A stretch of DNA of 64,000 bases from Escherichia coli (GTDB taxonomy: Bacteria; Pseudomonadota; Gammaproteobacteria; Enterobacterales; Enterobacteriaceae), in the NCBI RefSeq assembly GCF_044324785.1, contig NZ_CP172127.1, one strand, 5' to 3'. Below are positions 2,386-57,869 of the stretch, in pieces. A model generated the notes under the pieces. It had not been told where the DNA came from. It ran no database searches and was given only the letters and a program-made list of their open reading frames with translations. The position numbers and the translations under genes are program-made. Every line of letters begins with the position of its first letter. Position 1 is the stretch's first letter.

Positions 2386-2414
2386 GGCGGGAAATGCTCC
2401 CGCCTTATTTTTTG
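2386..2414 (+). terminator. Rho-independent terminator after dksA (partial read-through into gluQ expected)
   Basis: GC stem ggcggga/tcccgcc with 5-nt loop followed by ttatttttt; lies 5' of the gluQ ATG at 2424. Confidence 0.7.
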
Positions 2415-2423
2415 TTCAACGAG

Positions 2424-3320
2424 ATGACAGACACACACTATATTGGCCGCTTTGCCCCCTCTCCTTCCGGCGAGCTTCATTTTGGTTCTCTGATTGCCGC
2501 GCTTGGCAGCTATTTACAGGCTCGCGCCCGGCAAGGTCGCTGGCTGGTACGCATTGAAGATATCGACCCGCCTCGTGAAGTTCCCGGTGCCGCAGAGACT
2601 ATCCTGCGCCAGCTGGAACATTACGGTCTGCACTGGGACGGCGACGTTCTCTGGCAATCGCAACGTCACGACGCCTATCGCGAAGCACTCGCCTGGTTAC
2701 ATGAGCAAGGACTAAGTTATTACTGCACCTGCACGCGCGCGCGTATTCAAAGCATTGGCGGTATTTACGACGGCCATTGCCGGGAATTGCATCATGGACC
2801 AGACAACGCCGCAGTACGTATCCGCCAGCAGCATCCGGTCACTCAATTTACTGACCAGCTGCGCGGCATTATTCACGCCGACGAAAAACTGGCGCGGGAA
2901 GATTTTATTATTCATCGCCGTGATGGTTTGTTTGCCTATAACCTGGCGGTGGTGGTGGATGATCACTTCCAGGGCGTGAGCGAAATTGTCCGCGGGGCAG
3001 ATTTGATCGAACCAACTGTGCGGCAAATCTCGCTGTACCAGCTTTTTGGCTGGCAAGTGCCAGATTACATTCATCTTCCGCTGGCGCTTAATCCACAAGG
3101 CGCTAAACTTTCCAAGCAGAATCATGCGCCTGCGTTGCCGAAAGGCGATCCGCGCCCGGTACTAATCGCGGCACTTCAATTTCTGGGTCAGCAGGCAGAA
3201 GCACACTGGCAGGATTTCAGCGTCGAGCAAATCCTTCAGTTAGCCGTCAAAAACTGGCGGCTTACCGCCGTGCCTGAGTCGGCAATTGTAAATTCAACAT
3301 TCTCAAATGCGTCATGCTGA
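2424..3320 (+). CDS. gluQ: glutamyl-Q tRNA(Asp) synthetase
   Basis: [23 protein letters not shown]... class I aaRS HIGH-like motif; track ORF starts at 2394 but that ATG sits in the terminator loop, so 2424 preferred. Confidence 0.85.
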
Positions 3321-3379
3321 GCTATGATTAGCCGCTATTTTTTTGTCCTGAATGATGTTTGACACTACCGAGGTGTACT

Positions 3380-4777
3380 ATTTTTACCCGAGTCGCTAAT
3401 TTTTGCCGCAAGGTGCTAAGCCGCGAGGAAAGCGAGGCTGAACAGGCAGTCGCCCGTCCACAGGTGACGGTGATCCCGCGTGAGCAGCATGCTATTTCCC
3501 GCAAAGATATCAGTGAAAATGCCCTGAAGGTAATGTACAGGCTCAATAAAGCGGGATACGAAGCCTGGCTGGTTGGCGGCGGCGTGCGCGACCTGTTACT
3601 TGGCAAAAAGCCAAAAGATTTTGACGTAACCACTAACGCCACGCCTGAGCAGGTACGTAAACTGTTCCGTAACTGCCGCCTGGTGGGTCGCCGTTTCCGT
3701 CTGGCTCATGTGATGTTTGGCCCGGAGATTATCGAAGTTGCGACCTTCCGTGGACACCACGAAGGTAACATCAGCGACCGCACGACCTCCCAACGCGGGC
3801 AAAACGGCATGTTGCTGCGCGACAACATTTTCGGCTCCATCGAAGAAGACGCCCAGCGCCGCGATTTCACTATCAACAGCCTGTATTACAGCGTGGCAGA
3901 TTTTACCGTCCGTGATTACGTTGGCGGCATGAAGGATCTGAAAGACGGCGTTATCCGTCTGATTGGTAACCCGGAAACGCGCTACCGTGAAGATCCGGTA
4001 CGGATGCTGCGCGCGGTACGTTTTGCCGCCAAATTGGGTATGCGTATCAGTCCTGAAACCGCAGAACCGATCCCTCGCCTGGCTACCCTGCTGAACGATA
4101 TCCCACCGGCACGCCTGTTTGAAGAATCTTTGAAACTGCTGCAAGCGGGCTACGGTTACGAAACCTATAAGCTGCTGTGTGAATATCATCTGTTCCAGCC
4201 GCTGTTCCCGACCATTACCCGCTACTTCACGGAAAATGGCGACAGCCCGATGGAGCGGATCATTGAACAGGTGCTGAAGAATACCGATACGCGTATCCAT
4301 AACGATATGCGCGTGAACCCGGCATTCCTGTTTGCCGCCATGTTCTGGTACCCACTGCTGGAGACGGCACAGAAGATCGCCCAGGAAAGCGGCCTGACCT
4401 ATCACGACGCTTTCGCGCTGGCGATGAACGACGTGCTGGACGAAGCCTGCCGTTCACTGGCAATCCCGAAACGTCTGACGACGTTAACCCGCGATATCTG
4501 GCAGTTGCAGTTGCGTATGTCCCGTCGTCAGGGTAAACGCGCATGGAAACTGCTGGAGCATCCTAAGTTCCGTGCGGCTTATGACCTGTTGGCCTTGCGA
4601 GCTGAAGTTGAACGTAACGCTGAATTGCAGCGTCTGGTGAAATGGTGGGGTGAGTTTCAGGTTTCCGCGCCACCAGATCAAAAAGGGATGCTTAACGAGT
4701 TGGATGAAGAGCCGTCACCGCGTCGCCGTACTCGTCGTCCACGCAAACGCGCACCGCGTCGTGAGGGTACCGCATGA
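3380..4777 (+). CDS. pcnB: poly(A) polymerase I
   Basis: ...[21 protein letters not shown]... [18 protein letters not shown] nucleotidyltransferase motif; annotated start is ATT at 3380 (non-canonical); track ORF opens at TTG 3359. Confidence 0.85.
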
Positions 4778-50327: not shown

Positions 50328-50420
50328 GTCTGATGCGACGCTGGCCTGATAAGACGCGCCAGCGTCGCATCGGGCATCTTGTGCAAATGTTGGATGCGGC
50401 ATAAACGCCTATCCGACATA
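50328..50420. repeat. REP (repetitive extragenic palindrome) cluster between yacG and mutT
   Basis: tgatgcgacgctgg...ccagcgtcgcatc palindrome and a second degenerate unit ggatgcggcataaacgcctatccga matching the REP core GCCGGATGCGGCG family. Confidence 0.8.
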
Positions 50421-50821: not shown

Positions 50822-50850
50822 AAAAAAGGCGCAGAATCCTGCGCCTTTTA
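50822..50850 (-). terminator. Rho-independent terminator after secA
   Basis: Minus strand: stem aaaggcgcag gatt ctgcgccttt followed by ttta. Confidence 0.7.
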
Positions 50851-50866
50851 CTTCAACTGTTAGCTT

Positions 50867-53572
50867 TTATTGCAGGCGACCATGGCACTGCTTGTATTTT
50901 TTACCAGAACCGCACGGGCAAGGATCGTTACGTCCTACTTTGCGCTCACCGGTTTGCGCCGCCAGTGCAGCTGCGGCTGCAGAGTCGTCATCCTGATGGC
51001 TAAGCTGCTGCATTTGCGCTAAACGCTCGGCTTCCATACGACGCTGTTGTTCCAGCTCCTCAACCTCTTCAGGCATACGTACCTGAACTTTGCTCAGCGT
51101 GCTGATAACTTCATATTTCAACGACTCCAGCATCGCTGCAAACATGGAGAACGATTCACGTTTGTATTCCTGCTTCGGATCTTTCTGTGCATAGCCACGC
51201 AGGTGGATACCCTGACGCAGATAGTCCATCGCTGCCAGGTGCTCTTTCCACAGGGAGTCAAGCGTTTGCAGCATGACGCCTTTCTCGAAGTGACGCATCA
51301 TCTCAGCACCAACCACTTCTTCTTTACGCTGATACACTTCGATGGACTGCGCCAGAATGCGCTCACGCAGCGTCTCTTCATGCAGTTCTGGTTCTTTATC
51401 CAGCCACTCGGCAATTGGCAAATCGAGGTCGAAATCGTTCTTCAGACGTTCCTGCAGCCCCGGAATATCCCACATTTCTTCCAGCGACTGTGGCGGAATG
51501 TAGGCATCAATGGTCGCTTTGAACACATCTTCACGAATGCTGTTGATGGTTTCGCTCACATCGCTGACATCCAACAGTTCGTTACGCTGGGAGTAAATGG
51601 CGCGACGCTGATCGTTAGCCACGTCATCATATTCCAGCAGTTGCTTACGAATGTCGAAGTTACGACTTTCAACTTTACGCTGGGCGTTGGCAATCGCTTT
51701 AGTCACCCACGGGTGTTCAATGGCTTCGCCTGGCTTCATACCCAGTTTACGCATCATGCCGGATACTCGGTCGGAAGCAAAAATACGCATCAGCGCATCT
51801 TCCATCGACAGGTAGAAACGGGAAGAACCAGCATCCCCCTGACGACCAGAACGACCGCGCAACTGGTTATCGATACGACGGGATTCGTGACGCTCGGTAC
51901 CGATGATATGCAGGCCACCTGCTGCCAGTACCGCATCGTGACGTACCTGCCAGTCGGCTTTAATTTTTTCAATTTGCTCTGCGGTCGGATTTTCCAGCGC
52001 GGCAACTTCTGCCTGCCAGCTACCACCGAGCACAATATCTGTACCACGACCCGCCATGTTGGTCGCGATAGTCACCGCAGCCGGATAACCTGCCTGAGCA
52101 ACAATCGCCGCTTCGTTGGCATGGAATTTGGCGTTCAGGACATTGTGCTTAATACCGGCTTTGGTCAGTTCGTTTGACACCAGCTCCGATTTTTCGATGG
52201 AGATAGTACCCACCAGCACCGGCTGGCCTTTCGCAGTACGCTCTTTGATATCTTCAATGATCGCCTGAATTTTTTCCGCTTCAGTCATGTAGACCAGGTC
52301 CGGCAGATCTTTACGAATCATTGGACGGTTGGTCGGAACAACGACGGTATCCAGCTTGTAGATGGAGCTGAATTCGAAAGCTTCGGTATCAGCAGTACCG
52401 GTCATCCCCGCCAGTTTTTCATACAGACGGAAGTAGTTCTGGAAAGTGATCGACGCCAGCGTCTGGTTTTCGTTCTGGATCTGTACACCTTCTTTCGCTT
52501 CCACAGCCTGGTGCAGGCCATCGGACCAACGACGTCCCTGCATGGTACGACCGGTGTGTTCGTCAACGATGATAACTTCACCATCTTTAACGATGTAGTC
52601 GACGTCTCGGGTAAACAGCGCATGAGCGCGCAGCGCCGCCGTTACGTGGTGCATCAGCATGATGTTGGCCGGAGAGTACAGAGACTCCCCTTCATCCATG
52701 ATGCCTTCTTTCACCAGCAGTTCTTCAATCAGCACCAGACCACGTTCGGTCAGGTTCACCTGGCGAGATTTTTCGTCCACCGAGAAGTGGCCTTCGCCCT
52801 GGAAGGTTTCGGAGTCTTCTTTTTCCTGACGGATCAGGTGCGGAATAATTTTATTCACGCGTTTATACATTTCCGAGCTGTCTTCTGCCGGGCCGGAAAT
52901 GATCAGCGGTGTACGCGCTTCATCGATCAGGATGGAGTCCACTTCGTCCACCAGCGCATAGTGCAGTTTACGCTGTACACGTTCTTCAGGGCTGAACGCC
53001 ATGTTATCGCGCAGGTAGTCAAAGCCGTATTCGTTGTTCGTACCGTAAGTGATGTCAGCTGCGTAAGCTTCACGCTTCGCCGGTGCTGGCATGCCCGGCA
53101 GGTTGATACCGACAGTCAGGCCAAGGAATTCAAACAGCGGACGGTTGTTTTCGGCGTCACGTTGCGCCAGGTAGTCGTTGACGGTAACAACGTGTACGCC
53201 CTTACCGGTTAATGCGTTCAGGTAAGCAGGCAGCGTTGCGGTCAGGGTTTTACCTTCACCGGTACGCATTTCGGCGATGCAGCGTTCGTTAAGAACCATA
53301 CCGCCGAGTAACTGAACGTCGAAGTGACGCATACCAAAGACGCGCTTACTTGCCTCACGCACCACGGCGAAAGCTTCCGGGATCAGATTTTCCAGCACTT
53401 CGCCTTTTTCCAGACGTGCACGAAACTCTGCGGTTTTCCCTTTCAGTTCTTCGTCGGAGAGTTTTTCCATCTCCGGTTCCATGGCATTGATGATGTTGAC
53501 CACTTTGCGCATCCGGCGCAGGGTGCGATCGTTACGACTACCGAAAACTTTAGTTAATAATTTGATTAGCAT
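50867..53572 (-). CDS. secA: preprotein translocase ATPase SecA
   Basis: [43 protein letters not shown]... 901 aa, C-terminal zinc-binding [14 protein letters not shown]. Confidence 0.97.
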
Positions 53573-55394: not shown

Positions 55395-56546
55395 TTAATC
55401 AGCTTGCTTACGCAGGAATGCTGGGATATCCAGATAATCCGGCTCTTTCGCAGTTTGCGGTGCATTGTCATTCACGACTTTAGCAACCGGCTTCTGCTCC
55501 TGGGTCAGCGGAGCCATCCCGTGCTGCTGGTAGCGATCCATCACTGGCTGCTGAACCTGCTTATTGGTCACCAGAGTGATTTCAGGACGTTTGTCCATGC
55601 CGATACCTGTCGCAACAACAGTTACGCGCAGCTCGTCATTCATATCCGGGTCAAGAGAAGTACCGATAACCACAGTCGCGTTGTCGGAAGCAAATGCACG
55701 GATGGTGTTACCTACCGTTTCGAACTCATCCAGACGCAGGTCGAAGCCCGCCGTGATGTTAACCAGCACGCCGCGTGCGCCAGACAGGTCGATATCTTCC
55801 AGCAGCGGAGAAGAGATAGCCATTTCAGCAGCTTCTTCCGCACGGTCTTCACCACTCGCCACGCCAGAACCCATCATTGCGTAGCCCATTTCAGACATTA
55901 CGGTGCGTACGTCTGCAAAGTCCACGTTCATCAAACCCGGACGAGTAATCAGTTCAGCGATACCTTGCACAGCGCCTTTCAGTACATCGTTCGCTGCGCC
56001 AAACGCATCCAGCAGGGAGATACCGCGGCCCAGAACTTTCAGCAGTTTGTCGTTCGGGATAGTGATCAGAGAGTCCACATGTTTGGACAGTTCAGTGATC
56101 CCCTGCTCCGCGAATGCCATACGCTTCTTGCCTTCAAAGTTGAAAGGCTTAGTGACGACAGCAACGGTCAGGATACCCAAATCTTTTGCCACTTCAGCGA
56201 CGACTGGTGCTGCACCTGTACCGGTACCACCACCCATACCCGCTGCGATAAAGACCATGTCTGCACCTTCCAGCGCCGCACGCAGTGCATCGCGATCCTC
56301 ATCAGCCGCATTACGGCCAACTTCTGGATTAGCGCCAGCGCCCAGTCCTTTGGTGATACCGCTACCGATTTGAATCGTCTGTCCAACCGCTGTTTTACGC
56401 AGCGCTTGTGCATCGGTATTTACCGCGAAGAATTCAACACCTTCAATGCGCTCGCGCACCATGTGTTCAACAGCATTACCGCCGCCGCCGCCGACGCCGA
56501 TGACTTTAATCACCGCGTCATTGGTAAGTTCCATTGGTTCAAACAT
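55395..56546 (-). CDS. ftsZ: cell division GTPase FtsZ
   Basis: [30 protein letters not shown]... tubulin signature [10 protein letters not shown], 383 aa. Confidence 0.98.
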
Positions 56547-56606
56547 AGTTTCTCTCCGATTTGTGCCTGTCGCCTGAGGCCGTAATCATCGTCGGCCTCA
56601 TAAAAA

Positions 56607-57869
56607 TTAAAACTCTTTTCGCAGCCAACTATTGAGTCGCTTGATCCACGAGCCAACTGATGCTGTAACACGTTTTTCTACTTCAGCTTCACCGTTAAGA
56701 TGTGACTCTTTCCCATAGTGAAGCAATCCCACCGCCGTCGAATAATACGGCTCCTGAGCATAATCCGTTAAACCGGTAATGTTCAGCGGCGCGCCGATAC
56801 GCACTTGCGTATGAAACACGCGCTGAGCACAGGCTGCAAGACCTTCGATCTGCGCTGCGCCACCAGTTAAAACAATGCCTGCCGCCAGGTGATGTTTAAC
56901 CCCTTGTTGGCGAAGCTTTTCCTGCAACTGCAATATCTCTTCGTTGACCAGGTTGAGCAGCTCGGTATAGCGCGGCTCGATCACCTCTGCCAGGGTCTGA
57001 CGTTGCAGACTCCGCGGCGGACGACCACCTACGCTCGGCACTTCCACGCTCTCATCTTTTCCAACGATGGAACCCAGCGCACAACCGTGGCGAACTTTAA
57101 TCGCTTCGGCGTCGCTTGGCGGCGTGCCAAAGGCGTAAGCGATATCACTGGTCACGACATTGCCAGCATAAGGAATTACCTTAGTGTGGCGCAATGCCCC
57201 ACCGGTATAAACGGCGATATCCATTGTACCACCACCGATATCGACGACGCAGACACCCAGTTCACGTTCATCTTCCGTCAATACCGAATAACTTGATGCC
57301 AGTCCGGCAAATATCAGTTGGTCAACTTTCAGCCCACAACGTTCAACCGCTTTGACGATGTTTTTCGCCATATCGTTGTGACATGTGATCAGGTGCACTT
57401 TTGCCTGCATCCTCACGCCCGAAAGTCCTACCGGATTCTTGATCCCTTCCTGATAGTCAATCGCATACTCTTGCGGGATCACATGCAGCACACGATGCTC
57501 ATCGCGCACACGCACCGATTTCGCGGTATGGACGACGTTTTCCACATCTTCTTGCGTCACTTCTTCTTCAGAAATAGGCACCATACCAATTTCATTCTGG
57601 CAGCTGATGTGCTTACCAGAAAGCGCCAGATATACCGAAGAGATCTGACAATCTGCCATCAATTCTGCCTGGTCAATGGCGCGTTGTACGCACTTGACCA
57701 CGGATTCGAGGTCGTTCACCCCGCCTTTATCCATACCACGTGACGGGCAGCTGCCCACGCCAATGATATTGACCATACCGTCGGGCAGAACTTCCCCTAC
57801 TAAAGCGGCAACCTTCGCGGTACCAATCTCCAGTCCTACTACCAGTTTTCTGTCCGTCGCCTTGATCAT
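56607..57869 (-). CDS. ftsA: cell division protein FtsA (actin-like ATPase)
   Basis: [53 protein letters not shown]... 420 aa. Confidence 0.97.

What the first reader, a model, noticed from the sequence alone, without database searches (positions are those of the whole stretch)
3359..3382. pcnB initiates at a non-canonical AUU codon
Seen: the frame encoding poly(A) polymerase has no ATG/GTG at the expected N-terminus (…T-I-F-T-R-V-A-N-F…). The only in-frame canonical-like start is TTG at 3359, seven codons upstream, while the characterised N-terminus corresponds to ATT at 3380. Established knowledge: E. coli pcnB uses AUU to keep PAP I levels low. Automatic gene callers commonly mis-start this gene.
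Basis: partly seen in the sequence, partly recalled or inferred. Interest (0 to 1): 0.3.

Follow-up and report, generated by a model that had tools for sequence, protein, structure and literature searches.

The report
pcnB starts at rare ATT codon
The E. coli poly(A) polymerase gene pcnB in this window begins at the rare start codon ATT (position 3380), a textbook case published in 2002 and already used in reference annotations, so the finding is correct but ordinary.

Summary
In the pcnB frame a TGA stop lies at 3353, a TTG at 3359, a Shine-Dalgarno GAGGTG at 3370-3375 and an ATT at 3380. No ATG or GTG occurs before codon 12.

RefSeq starts the 465-codon CDS at this ATT, both in K-12 (b0143) and in the closest E. 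coli genome. The NCBIfam PcnB profile also begins there.

An independent comparison of 78 related loci (about 40 gammaproteobacterial genus-level labels) supports ATT over TTG:
- The aligned first codon is ATT in 70 loci and ATC in 8, never ATG, GTG or TTG.
- GAGGTG at -10 to -5 is present in 76 of 78.
- Three-base codon periodicity begins at +1.
- The upstream TTG is often CTG or absent, lies out of frame after indels in three Enterobacteriaceae, and in four loci an in-frame stop sits one codon before ATT/ATC.
- TTG 3359 has no Shine-Dalgarno sequence (-2.3 against -9.8 kcal/mol).

Public records carry four start models for this exact protein (465, 472, 454 and 414 aa), so mis-starting is real.

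The mechanism comes from the literature: AUU is a poor initiator that IF3 discriminates against, which keeps the toxic PAP I scarce. This is already known (Binns and Masters 2002). Interest is low.

The parts
3380..3382 (+). ATT, the non-canonical initiation codon of pcnB (decoded as fMet)
   Evidence: RefSeq CDS starts map here. NF008634 profile position 1 aligns here. The aligned codon is ATT in 70 and ATC in 8 of 78 loci from about 40 genus-level labels, never ATG, GTG or TTG.
3370..3375 (+). Shine-Dalgarno sequence GAGGTG; its GAGG core lies 6 nt and its last G 4 nt upstream of ATT
   Evidence: Duplex with the 16S 3' end is -9.8 kcal/mol, against a background mean of -3.5. GAGGTG is present in 76 of 78 loci and GGGGTG in 2, at fixed spacing.
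3359..3361 (+). In-frame TTG, the decoy start used by the 472-aa gene models; probably not used
   Evidence: No SD upstream (-2.3 kcal/mol). In 22 Enterobacteriaceae sequences the position is TTG in 9, CTG in 8 and other in 5. Indels of 1 nt (two Enterobacter) and 5 nt (Mangrovibacter) between it and ATT break the frame.
3353..3355 (+). In-frame TGA that closes the pcnB frame upstream
3380..4777 (+). pcnB coding sequence, 465 codons plus TGA, encoding poly(A) polymerase I
   Evidence: NF008634 equivalog scores 996 bits against a cut-off of 702. One amino-acid difference (V131I) and 29 nt differences from K-12. PDB 3AQK-3AQN match query residues 35/36-449 of the TTG-model protein, i.e. 28/29-442 in 465-aa numbering.
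3383..3418 (+). Codons 2-13, the conserved N-terminal peptide [12 protein letters not shown], whose conservation locates the start
   Evidence: Entropy by codon position for codons 2-14 is 0.64/0.45/1.27 bits, against 1.77/1.78/1.67 upstream of the SD. No indels in this stretch in 22 Enterobacteriaceae.
3300..3328 (+). Sigma-70-like promoter TTCTCA-17-TATGAT spanning the gluQ stop; probably the published pB promoter (inferred, not verified)
   Evidence: It is the only promoter-like site on either strand of 3050-3600. The GCTATGATTAGCCGCT block is conserved across Enterobacteriaceae. PMC2939334 names pB as the major sigma-70 pcnB promoter but gives no sequence in its text.
3413..3415 (+). GTG, codon 12; the start of the 454-aa gene models, an internal Val codon
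   Evidence: No SD (-0.1 kcal/mol). It lies inside the conserved peptide. The 454-aa model is present in public records.
3533..3535 (+). ATG, codon 52; I take it to be the start originally proposed by Liu & Parkinson 1989 (inference: it is the first in-frame ATG) and it is the start of the 414-aa models. A possible minor start from the internal sigma-S promoter pS1.
   Evidence: Weak SD, AAGG, -4.0 kcal/mol. PMC2939334 discusses an ATG '+1(b)' and a possible truncated PAP I. The 414-aa model is in the records.

Best explanation
Window 3380-4777 (+) is E. coli pcnB, encoding poly(A) polymerase I. Its translation starts at ATT 3380. The 30S subunit is positioned by the strong, invariant Shine-Dalgarno sequence GAGGTG (3370-3375), and initiator tRNA reads AUU with a third-position mismatch.

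Initiation factor IF3 discriminates against AUU as a non-canonical start codon, so only a small fraction of ribosome-binding events proceed to protein. This keeps PAP I scarce (30-50 molecules per cell, as cited), which matters because excess PAP I is toxic.

TTG 3359, GTG 3413 and ATG 3533 are not the main start; they are what gene callers pick when they do not allow ATT.

Shown here: the anatomy, agreement with curated annotation, and deep conservation of SD plus ATT/ATC, with coding constraint starting at +1.

Taken from the literature: that AUU is used in vivo and limits expression.

Inferred: that IF3 is the discriminating factor for pcnB specifically.
For: - **Anatomy:**
- **Annotation:** K-12 b0143 and NZ_CM128601.1 start at this ATT. 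In RefSeq E. coli samples, 60/60 have no feature over the 42 nt upstream and 60/60 have pcnB over the first 33 nt.
- **Profile:** NF008634 position 1 aligns to the ATT codon, 996 bits.
- **Comparative evidence:** the loci were recovered with a pattern 129 nt downstream of the start, so selection was blind to the start codon. In 78 loci carrying the N-terminal peptide the first codon is ATT (70) or ATC (8). Relaxing the motif to any residue at that position added no ATG, GTG or TTG case.
- **SD conservation:** GAGGTG is invariant at -10 to -5 in 73 distinct sequences. Entropy is 1.7-1.8 bits in all three frame positions upstream, and 0.64/0.45/1.27 by codon position from codon 2 on.
- **No alternative start upstream:** 40 of 78 loci have no canonical in-frame start between the upstream stop and ATT/ATC. 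In Salinivibrio (2 loci), Grimontia and Schmidhempelia the in-frame stop is one codon upstream.
- **Frame-breaking indels** occur between the TTG position and ATT in Enterobacter cloacae, E. asburiae and Mangrovibacter.
- **SD strength:** -9.8 kcal/mol for ATT, -2.3 for TTG, -0.1 for GTG 3413 and -4.0 for ATG 3533.
- **More distant lineages:** Idiomarina and Methylococcaceae-type loci also show an SD-like motif followed by ATT.
- **Literature:** AUU start and limitation of expression from Binns & Masters 2002, via PMC2939334, PMC3561954, PMC9764084 and PMC4447247. IF3 discrimination against AUU from PMC5499595.
Against: - I could not read the primary experimental paper, so the in vivo use of AUU rests on secondary citations plus my comparative inference.
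- Two papers from one laboratory still describe the pcnB start as UUG (PMC3378859 methods; PMC3561954 introduction, although its discussion says AUU).
- Within E. coli the 42 nt upstream are essentially invariant (5420 of 5421 genomes at 99% or more), so species-level variation cannot discriminate TTG from ATT.
- The literature calls the ribosome-binding site 'poor', whereas the sequence shows a strong, invariant SD. I found no selected SD-sequestering structure to reconcile this: mean P(SD unpaired) is 0.24 observed against 0.22 for flank-shuffled controls.
- PMC5499595 notes that AUU does not always mean low output, since IF3 itself is abundant.
Confidence: 0.95

Rival explanations
1. Translation starts at TTG 3359, giving a 472-aa PAP I with the extra N-terminus MTLPRCT. 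The ATT is then an ordinary internal isoleucine codon.
For: TTG is the only canonical-type start upstream in frame. The 472-aa model is widespread in public records. 'UUG start codon' appears in PMC3378859 and in the introduction of PMC3561954. TTG lies downstream of the predicted promoter and so would be on the mRNA.
Against: - There is no SD before TTG (-2.3 kcal/mol).
- Among 22 Enterobacteriaceae sequences the position is TTG in only 9, CTG in 8 and other in 5, and frame-breaking indels of 1 or 5 nt separate it from ATT in three.
- No codon periodicity is seen upstream of the SD.
- 40 of 78 loci have no canonical in-frame start upstream at all, and four have a stop one codon before ATT/ATC.
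- The apparent 'RC(T/P)' amino-acid conservation upstream is simply the SD nucleotides aGG TGt.
- Curated and PGAP annotation and the NF008634 profile all start at ATT.
Confidence: 0.03
2. Translation starts downstream at GTG 3413 (454 aa), and the conserved stretch before it is a non-coding leader.
For: GTG is a canonical start. The 454-aa model is common in records such as REL606 and E. marmotae.
Against: - No SD (-0.1 kcal/mol).
- The 11 codons before it show coding-type conservation, with third-position wobble, conservative replacements such as FTRV/FSQI/FNRV/FRRI, and no indels.
- The GTG is absent at that position in many lineages, including Shewanella, Pantoea, Erwinia and Photobacterium.
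Confidence: 0.01
3. There are two products. The main AUU-initiated 465-aa PAP I is accompanied by a minor N-terminally truncated form started at ATG 3533, translated from transcripts of the internal sigma-S promoter pS1 under special conditions. This is compatible with the best explanation rather than exclusive of it.
For: PMC2939334 reports pS1 activity in vitro, and in vivo only under specific conditions. It also notes two anti-PAP I bands on Western blots and a putative SD plus AUG. AAGG precedes ATG 3533 (-4.0 kcal/mol).
Against: The authors themselves call it unproven and unlikely under normal growth. A start at codon 52 would remove residues that the crystallised construct retains: the PDB chains begin at residue 28 or 29 of the 465-aa protein. 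That region also carries the conserved [15 protein letters not shown] motif, which is conserved in all 120 loci, though its ISENALKV part was the search pattern itself. The SD is weak.
Confidence: 0.1

Closest known systems
E. coli K-12 pcnB (b0143, NP_414685.4), AUU-initiated poly(A) polymerase I (Binns & Masters 2002, Mol Microbiol 44:1287)
   Same: It is the same gene. The 120 nt upstream differ at one base. The SD and ATT are identical. The CDS has 29 nt differences and one amino-acid difference (V131I). The gluQ-pcnB-folK order is the same.
   Different: Nothing relevant to the start; this is another E. coli strain.
E. coli infC (IF3), the first chromosomal AUU start, autoregulated through IF3 discrimination
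   Same: A non-canonical AUU (AUC in some species) is conserved across bacteria and sits behind a functional SD, and expression is limited by the start codon (PMC5499595 and PMC4447247). In pcnB I find the same ATT/ATC alternation: ATC in Photobacterium, Salinivibrio and Grimontia.
   Different: For infC the AUU closes a feedback loop, because the product is the discriminator itself. For pcnB no feedback is known; the reported role is simply to keep a toxic enzyme scarce. IF3 dependence of pcnB was not tested here.
Enterococcus faecalis ebpA, an ATT start that attenuates pilus expression (PMC4447247)
   Same: It is a rare ATT start, mis-annotated at a downstream canonical codon, that lowers protein output.
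   Different: The protein and phylum are unrelated, and no deep conservation has been shown.

Membership tests
PcnB / poly(A) polymerase I (NCBIfam NF008634 equivalog; TIGR01942) | Whole-protein score above the curated cut-off with an end-to-end alignment | tested here: met
   NF008634 scores 996.3 bits against a cut-off of 702, with profile positions 1-468 of 469 aligned to residues 8-471 of the TTG model. TIGR01942 scores 522.9 against 305.65.
PcnB / poly(A) polymerase I (NCBIfam NF008634 equivalog; TIGR01942) | Distinct from CCA-adding enzymes, the closest paralogues | tested here: met
   All CCA-tRNA nucleotidyltransferase models score far below their cut-offs, for example 176 against 290 and 77 against 451. 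E. coli PAP I structures 3AQK-3AQN match at E=1e-284.
PcnB / poly(A) polymerase I (NCBIfam NF008634 equivalog; TIGR01942) | Enterobacterial gene order gluQ-pcnB-folK | tested here: met
   The RefSeq annotations of K-12 and NZ_CM128601.1 map onto the window in the same order.
Genes initiated at a non-canonical AUU/AUC codon (infC-type starts) | In-frame AUU/AUC at the conserved N-terminus with no canonical start that could serve instead | tested here: met
   70 ATT and 8 ATC in 78 loci. 40 of 78 have no in-frame ATG, GTG or TTG between the upstream stop and this codon, and four have the stop one codon upstream.
Genes initiated at a non-canonical AUU/AUC codon (infC-type starts) | Shine-Dalgarno sequence at functional spacing from the AUU | tested here: met
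   GAGGTG at -10 to -5, -9.8 kcal/mol, present in 76 of 78 loci.
Genes initiated at a non-canonical AUU/AUC codon (infC-type starts) | Coding constraint begins at the AUU, not before it | tested here: met
   Entropy periodicity of 0.64/0.45/1.27 from codon 2 on, against a flat 1.7-1.8 upstream. Frame-breaking indels occur only upstream.
Genes initiated at a non-canonical AUU/AUC codon (infC-type starts) | Experimental proof that the protein starts at AUU and that AUU-to-AUG raises expression | not testable with these tools
   Reported by Binns & Masters 2002 according to PMC2939334, PMC3561954 and PMC4447247. The primary paper is not held.
Genes initiated at a non-canonical AUU/AUC codon (infC-type starts) | Repression by IF3 (expression rises in infC fidelity mutants or when IF3 is limiting) | not testable with these tools
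   General IF3 discrimination against AUU is documented (PMC5499595). I found no statement specific to pcnB in the papers held.

The most novel reading that the evidence does not exclude
Low expression could be achieved in many ways, yet pcnB keeps a strong, invariant Shine-Dalgarno sequence together with AUU/AUC across at least 40 gammaproteobacterial genus-level labels. infC shows the same signature. The most novel reading my evidence does not exclude is that pcnB is a second IF3-sensing gene: PAP I synthesis would rise when free IF3 falls. That would couple RNA polyadenylation and decay to the cell's translation-initiation capacity, rather than AUU merely acting as a fixed brake. The phylogenetic hint of AUU starts in PAP I homologues was already noted by Binns & Masters, according to PMC3561954.
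Probability: 0.2. Interest if true: 0.4.

Novelty: already known. Interest (0 to 1): 0.1.

Why it matters
The practical value is for annotation. Gene callers restricted to ATG, GTG and TTG give this protein a false 7-residue extension (472 aa) or truncate it (454 or 414 aa), and all of these versions circulate in public databases.

Biologically, the AUU start is one of only two confirmed in E. coli. It is part of how the cell keeps a toxic RNA-tailing enzyme at a few dozen copies.

None of this is new. The comparative data here show only how deeply the SD-plus-AUU/AUC arrangement is conserved.

Tried and rejected
1. **Primary papers.** Binns & Masters 2002 (PMID 12068810) and Cao & Sarkar 1992 (PMC50342) are not held, so experimental details such as the fold increase with AUG or N-terminal sequence data could not be checked.

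2. **Initiation-profiling or N-terminomics evidence for pcnB.** Searches on pcnB with retapamulin, 'translation initiation site' plus 'ribosome profiling', and 'translation start site' plus 'non-canonical' found nothing that addresses pcnB directly.

3. **An SD-sequestering hairpin that might explain the literature's 'poor RBS'.** A small ACAC/GUGU stem (3362-3376) appears in one fold. Across 68 distinct sequences, however, the SD is no more paired than with shuffled flanks (0.24 against 0.22), and the ACAC is not conserved. I rejected it as unsupported.

4. **The out-of-frame mini-ORF ATGATG 3352/3355 to TAA 3399 as a regulatory upstream ORF.** It has no SD (-0.5 kcal/mol) and its ATG is absent in most Enterobacteriaceae. 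Rejected.

5. **Within-species polymorphism to discriminate TTG from ATT.** The region is invariant in E. coli, so this is uninformative.

6. **Rfam.** No known RNA family lies near the start.

7. **Text of PMC2939334 for the pB promoter hexamers**, to tie them to 3300-3328. They are not given in the text, so that identification stays an inference.

One caveat on my first motif search: it required Ile at position 1, which would have made 'always ATT/ATC' circular. I repeated it with any residue allowed and recovered no further locus.

Full report
**What is in the sequence.** Window 3359-3382 lies at the 5' end of a 1.4-kb ORF on the + strand. In its frame the codons read TGA(3353) TGT TTG(3359) ACA CTA CCG AGG TGT ACT ATT(3380) TTT ACC CGA GTC GCT AAT TTT TGC CGC AAG GTG(3413)..., and the ORF ends at TGA 4775-4777.

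**Identity of the gene.**
- The 501 bases around the site match 5,424 of 5,426 complete E. coli genomes, the best at 99.6%.
- Neighbours are thpR, sfsA, dksA and gluQ upstream, and folK and yadN downstream.
- The protein scores 996 bits on the NCBIfam PcnB equivalog NF008634 (cut-off 702), and CCA-adding-enzyme models fall far below their cut-offs.
- It differs from K-12 PAP I by one residue, V131I.
- It matches the E. coli PAP I crystal structures 3AQK-3AQN, whose constructs begin at residue 28 or 29 of the 465-aa protein and therefore say nothing about the N-terminus.

**What annotation says.**
- K-12 b0143 (157729..159126, minus strand, 1398 nt) begins with ATT, and its upstream 120 nt differ from the window at one base.
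- The closest genome, NZ_CM128601.1, annotates pcnB from the base that maps to window 3380.
- In a spread sample of 60 RefSeq E. coli genomes, none has a feature over 3338-3379.
- In a second spread sample of 60, all have pcnB over 3380-3412.
- Position 1 of the NF008634 profile aligns to residue 8 of the TTG-started protein, which is the ATT codon.

**Independent test by comparison.** I scanned one genome per species (GTDB set) with a degenerate pattern for the peptide ISENALKV(L/M)Y. This peptide lies 129 nt downstream of the ATT, so the selection was blind to the start.

Walking upstream in frame, 78 loci plus the window carry the N-terminal peptide I-F-x-(R/Q)-(V/I)-x-x-F-C-R-K-V-L. They carry about 40 genus-level labels:
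- Enterobacterales, from Escherichia to Serratia, Photorhabdus and Edwardsiella
- Aeromonas and Tolumonas
- Shewanella, Moritella and Ferrimonas
- Photobacterium, Salinivibrio and Grimontia
- Gilliamella, Schmidhempelia and other Orbaceae

The results were as follows.
- The first codon is ATT in 70 loci and ATC in 8; all ATC cases are Photobacterium, Salinivibrio or Grimontia. My first motif required Ile at that position. Repeating the search with any residue allowed recovered no locus with ATG, GTG or TTG there.
- GAGGTG occupies -10 to -5 in 76 of 78 loci and GGGGTG in the other 2.
- Across 73 distinct sequences, per-column entropy is 1.7-1.8 bits in all three frame positions from -45 to -13. 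It is zero for five of the six SD columns and 0.18 bits at -9. It is 0.64/0.45/1.27 bits by codon position for codons 2-14. Protein-coding constraint therefore switches on at +1.
- 40 of 78 loci have no canonical in-frame start between the upstream stop and the ATT/ATC. In Salinivibrio (two species), Grimontia and Schmidhempelia the in-frame stop is one codon upstream.
- Among 22 aligned Enterobacteriaceae sequences, the position of E. coli's TTG is TTG in 9, CTG in 8 and something else in 5. Enterobacter cloacae and E. asburiae have a 1-nt deletion, and Mangrovibacter a 5-nt deletion, between it and ATT. From ATT onward there are no indels, and the differences are mostly at third positions.
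- The apparent 'RC(T/P)' residues before the Ile are simply the SD nucleotides read in frame.
- More distant lineages with a related N-terminus (Idiomarina; Methylococcaceae-type 'ILNFFKKII') also show an SD-like motif followed by ATT. Lineages lacking the peptide (some Vibrio, Chromatiaceae, a Pantoea symbiont) have ATG.

**Ribosome-binding potential in the window itself.** Pairing of the 20 nt upstream of each candidate with the 16S 3' end gives the values below. The background mean is -3.5; 3.2% of windows reach -9 and 1.7% reach -10.

| Candidate start | Duplex energy (kcal/mol) |
|---|---|
| ATT 3380 | -9.8 |
| TTG 3359 | -2.3 |
| GTG 3413 | -0.1 |
| ATG 3533 | -4.0 |

The GAGG core is 6 nt from the ATT, a normal spacing by established knowledge of SD spacing.

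**Transcription context.** The only sigma-70-like site on either strand of 3050-3600 is TTCTCA-17-TATGAT at 3300-3328. Its -10 box follows the gluQ stop directly, and the block GCTATGATTAGCCGCT is conserved across Enterobacteriaceae. It is probably the published major promoter pB (PMC2939334), but that paper's text does not give the hexamers, so this is an inference. A transcript from it would carry a leader of about 45 nt containing both TTG and the SD.

**Mechanism.** The secondary literature is unanimous. Binns & Masters (2002) showed that pcnB is translated from AUU and that this limits PAP I synthesis. infC and pcnB are the only two confirmed AUU starts in E. coli (PMC2939334, PMC3561954, PMC9764084, PMC4447247, PMC5499595, PMC4245954, bioRxiv 10.1101/063800). 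PAP I is present at about 30-50 molecules per cell, and its over-production is toxic (PMC3561954). IF3 rejects 30S complexes on non-canonical codons, and adding IF3 selectively depresses an AUU mRNA in extracts (PMC5499595).

My reading has three steps:
1. A strong SD recruits the 30S subunit.
2. Initiator tRNA pairs imperfectly with AUU.
3. IF3 proofreading aborts most attempts, so output is low.

The first step is shown by the sequence and its conservation. The use of AUU in vivo comes from the literature. IF3 involvement for pcnB specifically is inferred.

**Mis-annotation claim.** An exact look-up finds this protein in public collections in four lengths. The 465-aa (ATT), 472-aa (TTG 3359) and 454-aa (GTG 3413) versions were each seen on at least 1,000 contigs. 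The 414-aa version (ATG 3533) was seen on 5. Two Kushner-lab papers also still refer to a 'UUG' start (PMC3378859 methods; PMC3561954 introduction, contradicted by its own discussion).

**Rivals.** A TTG 3359 or GTG 3413 start is contradicted by the comparative data above. A minor truncated isoform from ATG 3533, driven by the internal sigma-S promoter pS1, was floated by PMC2939334 and remains possible but unproven. It would complement the AUU start, not replace it.

**Loose end.** The literature speaks of a 'poor ribosome-binding site', but the SD is strong and invariant. I tested whether it is sequestered by conserved structure and found no signal: P(SD unpaired) is 0.24 observed against 0.22 with shuffled flanks, and the small ACAC/GUGU stem is not conserved. 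No Rfam family lies near the start.

**Verdict.** The phenomenon has been known since 2002 and is already encoded in RefSeq and NCBIfam. Novelty: already known. Interest: low. The residual point of interest is how strictly a strong SD paired with AUU/AUC is retained across Gammaproteobacteria. That pattern resembles infC and leaves room for an IF3-sensing role, which only experiments can test.

Noticed in passing
window 3370-3375; loci L003-L122: The Shine-Dalgarno GAGGTG before the pcnB ATT is present in 76 of 78 loci and pairs at -9.8 kcal/mol. Two papers nevertheless describe the pcnB ribosome-binding site as 'poor'. I found no conserved SD-sequestering structure that would reconcile the two.
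   Followed up: partly
L031, L032, L070, L081, L083, L094, L116, L118; L033, L049, L101: Photobacterium, Salinivibrio and Grimontia use ATC instead of ATT at the pcnB start, the same ATT/ATC alternation described for infC. Three Vibrio loci (V. breoganii, V. sp. UCD-FRSSP16_30, V. salinus) lack the conserved N-terminal peptide and have an ATG instead.
   Followed up: partly
window 3383-3508; L038, L053, L069, L088, L109, L010, L023: The 13-residue N-terminal peptide (I)[12 protein letters not shown] is highly conserved. It is followed by a hypervariable linker: 37 to 147 codons separate the start from ISENALKV, with large expansions in Rahnella, Moritella, Serratia and Photorhabdus. The crystal constructs begin at residue 28 or 29 of the 465-aa protein, so the peptide's role is not structurally defined.
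   Followed up: no
window 3383-3385: The third base of codon 2 (TTT) is T in 97% of 73 distinct sequences, against 75% for the Phe codon at position 8. Position -1 is always a pyrimidine. This hints at nucleotide-level constraint immediately around the AUU.
   Followed up: no
window 3352-3399 (+): An out-of-frame mini-ORF (ATGATG...TAA, 14-15 codons) overlaps the SD and the ATT. It has no SD and its ATG is missing in most Enterobacteriaceae, so it is probably chance.
   Followed up: yes
window 2394-3320 (+): gluQ also has two start models. K-12 curation gives 308 aa (start at window 2394), while PGAP in NZ_CM128601.1 gives 298 aa (start at window 2424).
   Followed up: no
window 4774-4777: The pcnB stop TGA overlaps the folK start ATG (ATGA), the usual arrangement for translational coupling.
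   Followed up: no
window 3300-3328: A promoter-like site, TTCTCA-17-TATGAT, has its -10 box immediately after the gluQ stop. The block GCTATGATTAGCCGCT followed by a T-run is conserved across Enterobacteriaceae. It is probably the published pB promoter.
   Followed up: partly
window 38956-39069 (+), 50343-50418 (-), 50822-50891 (-), 56538-56627 (-): Rfam matches above the gathering score elsewhere in the window: tp2, naRNA4 (CssrE), STnc40 and PssrA.
   Followed up: no
E. coli genome search results: Three of about 5,420 matches to the pcnB start region lie on records typed as plasmids rather than chromosomes.
   Followed up: no
protein cluster (P0013): A 468-aa PcnB variant is present in E. 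coli records and corresponds to none of the four start models examined. I did not inspect it.
   Followed up: no
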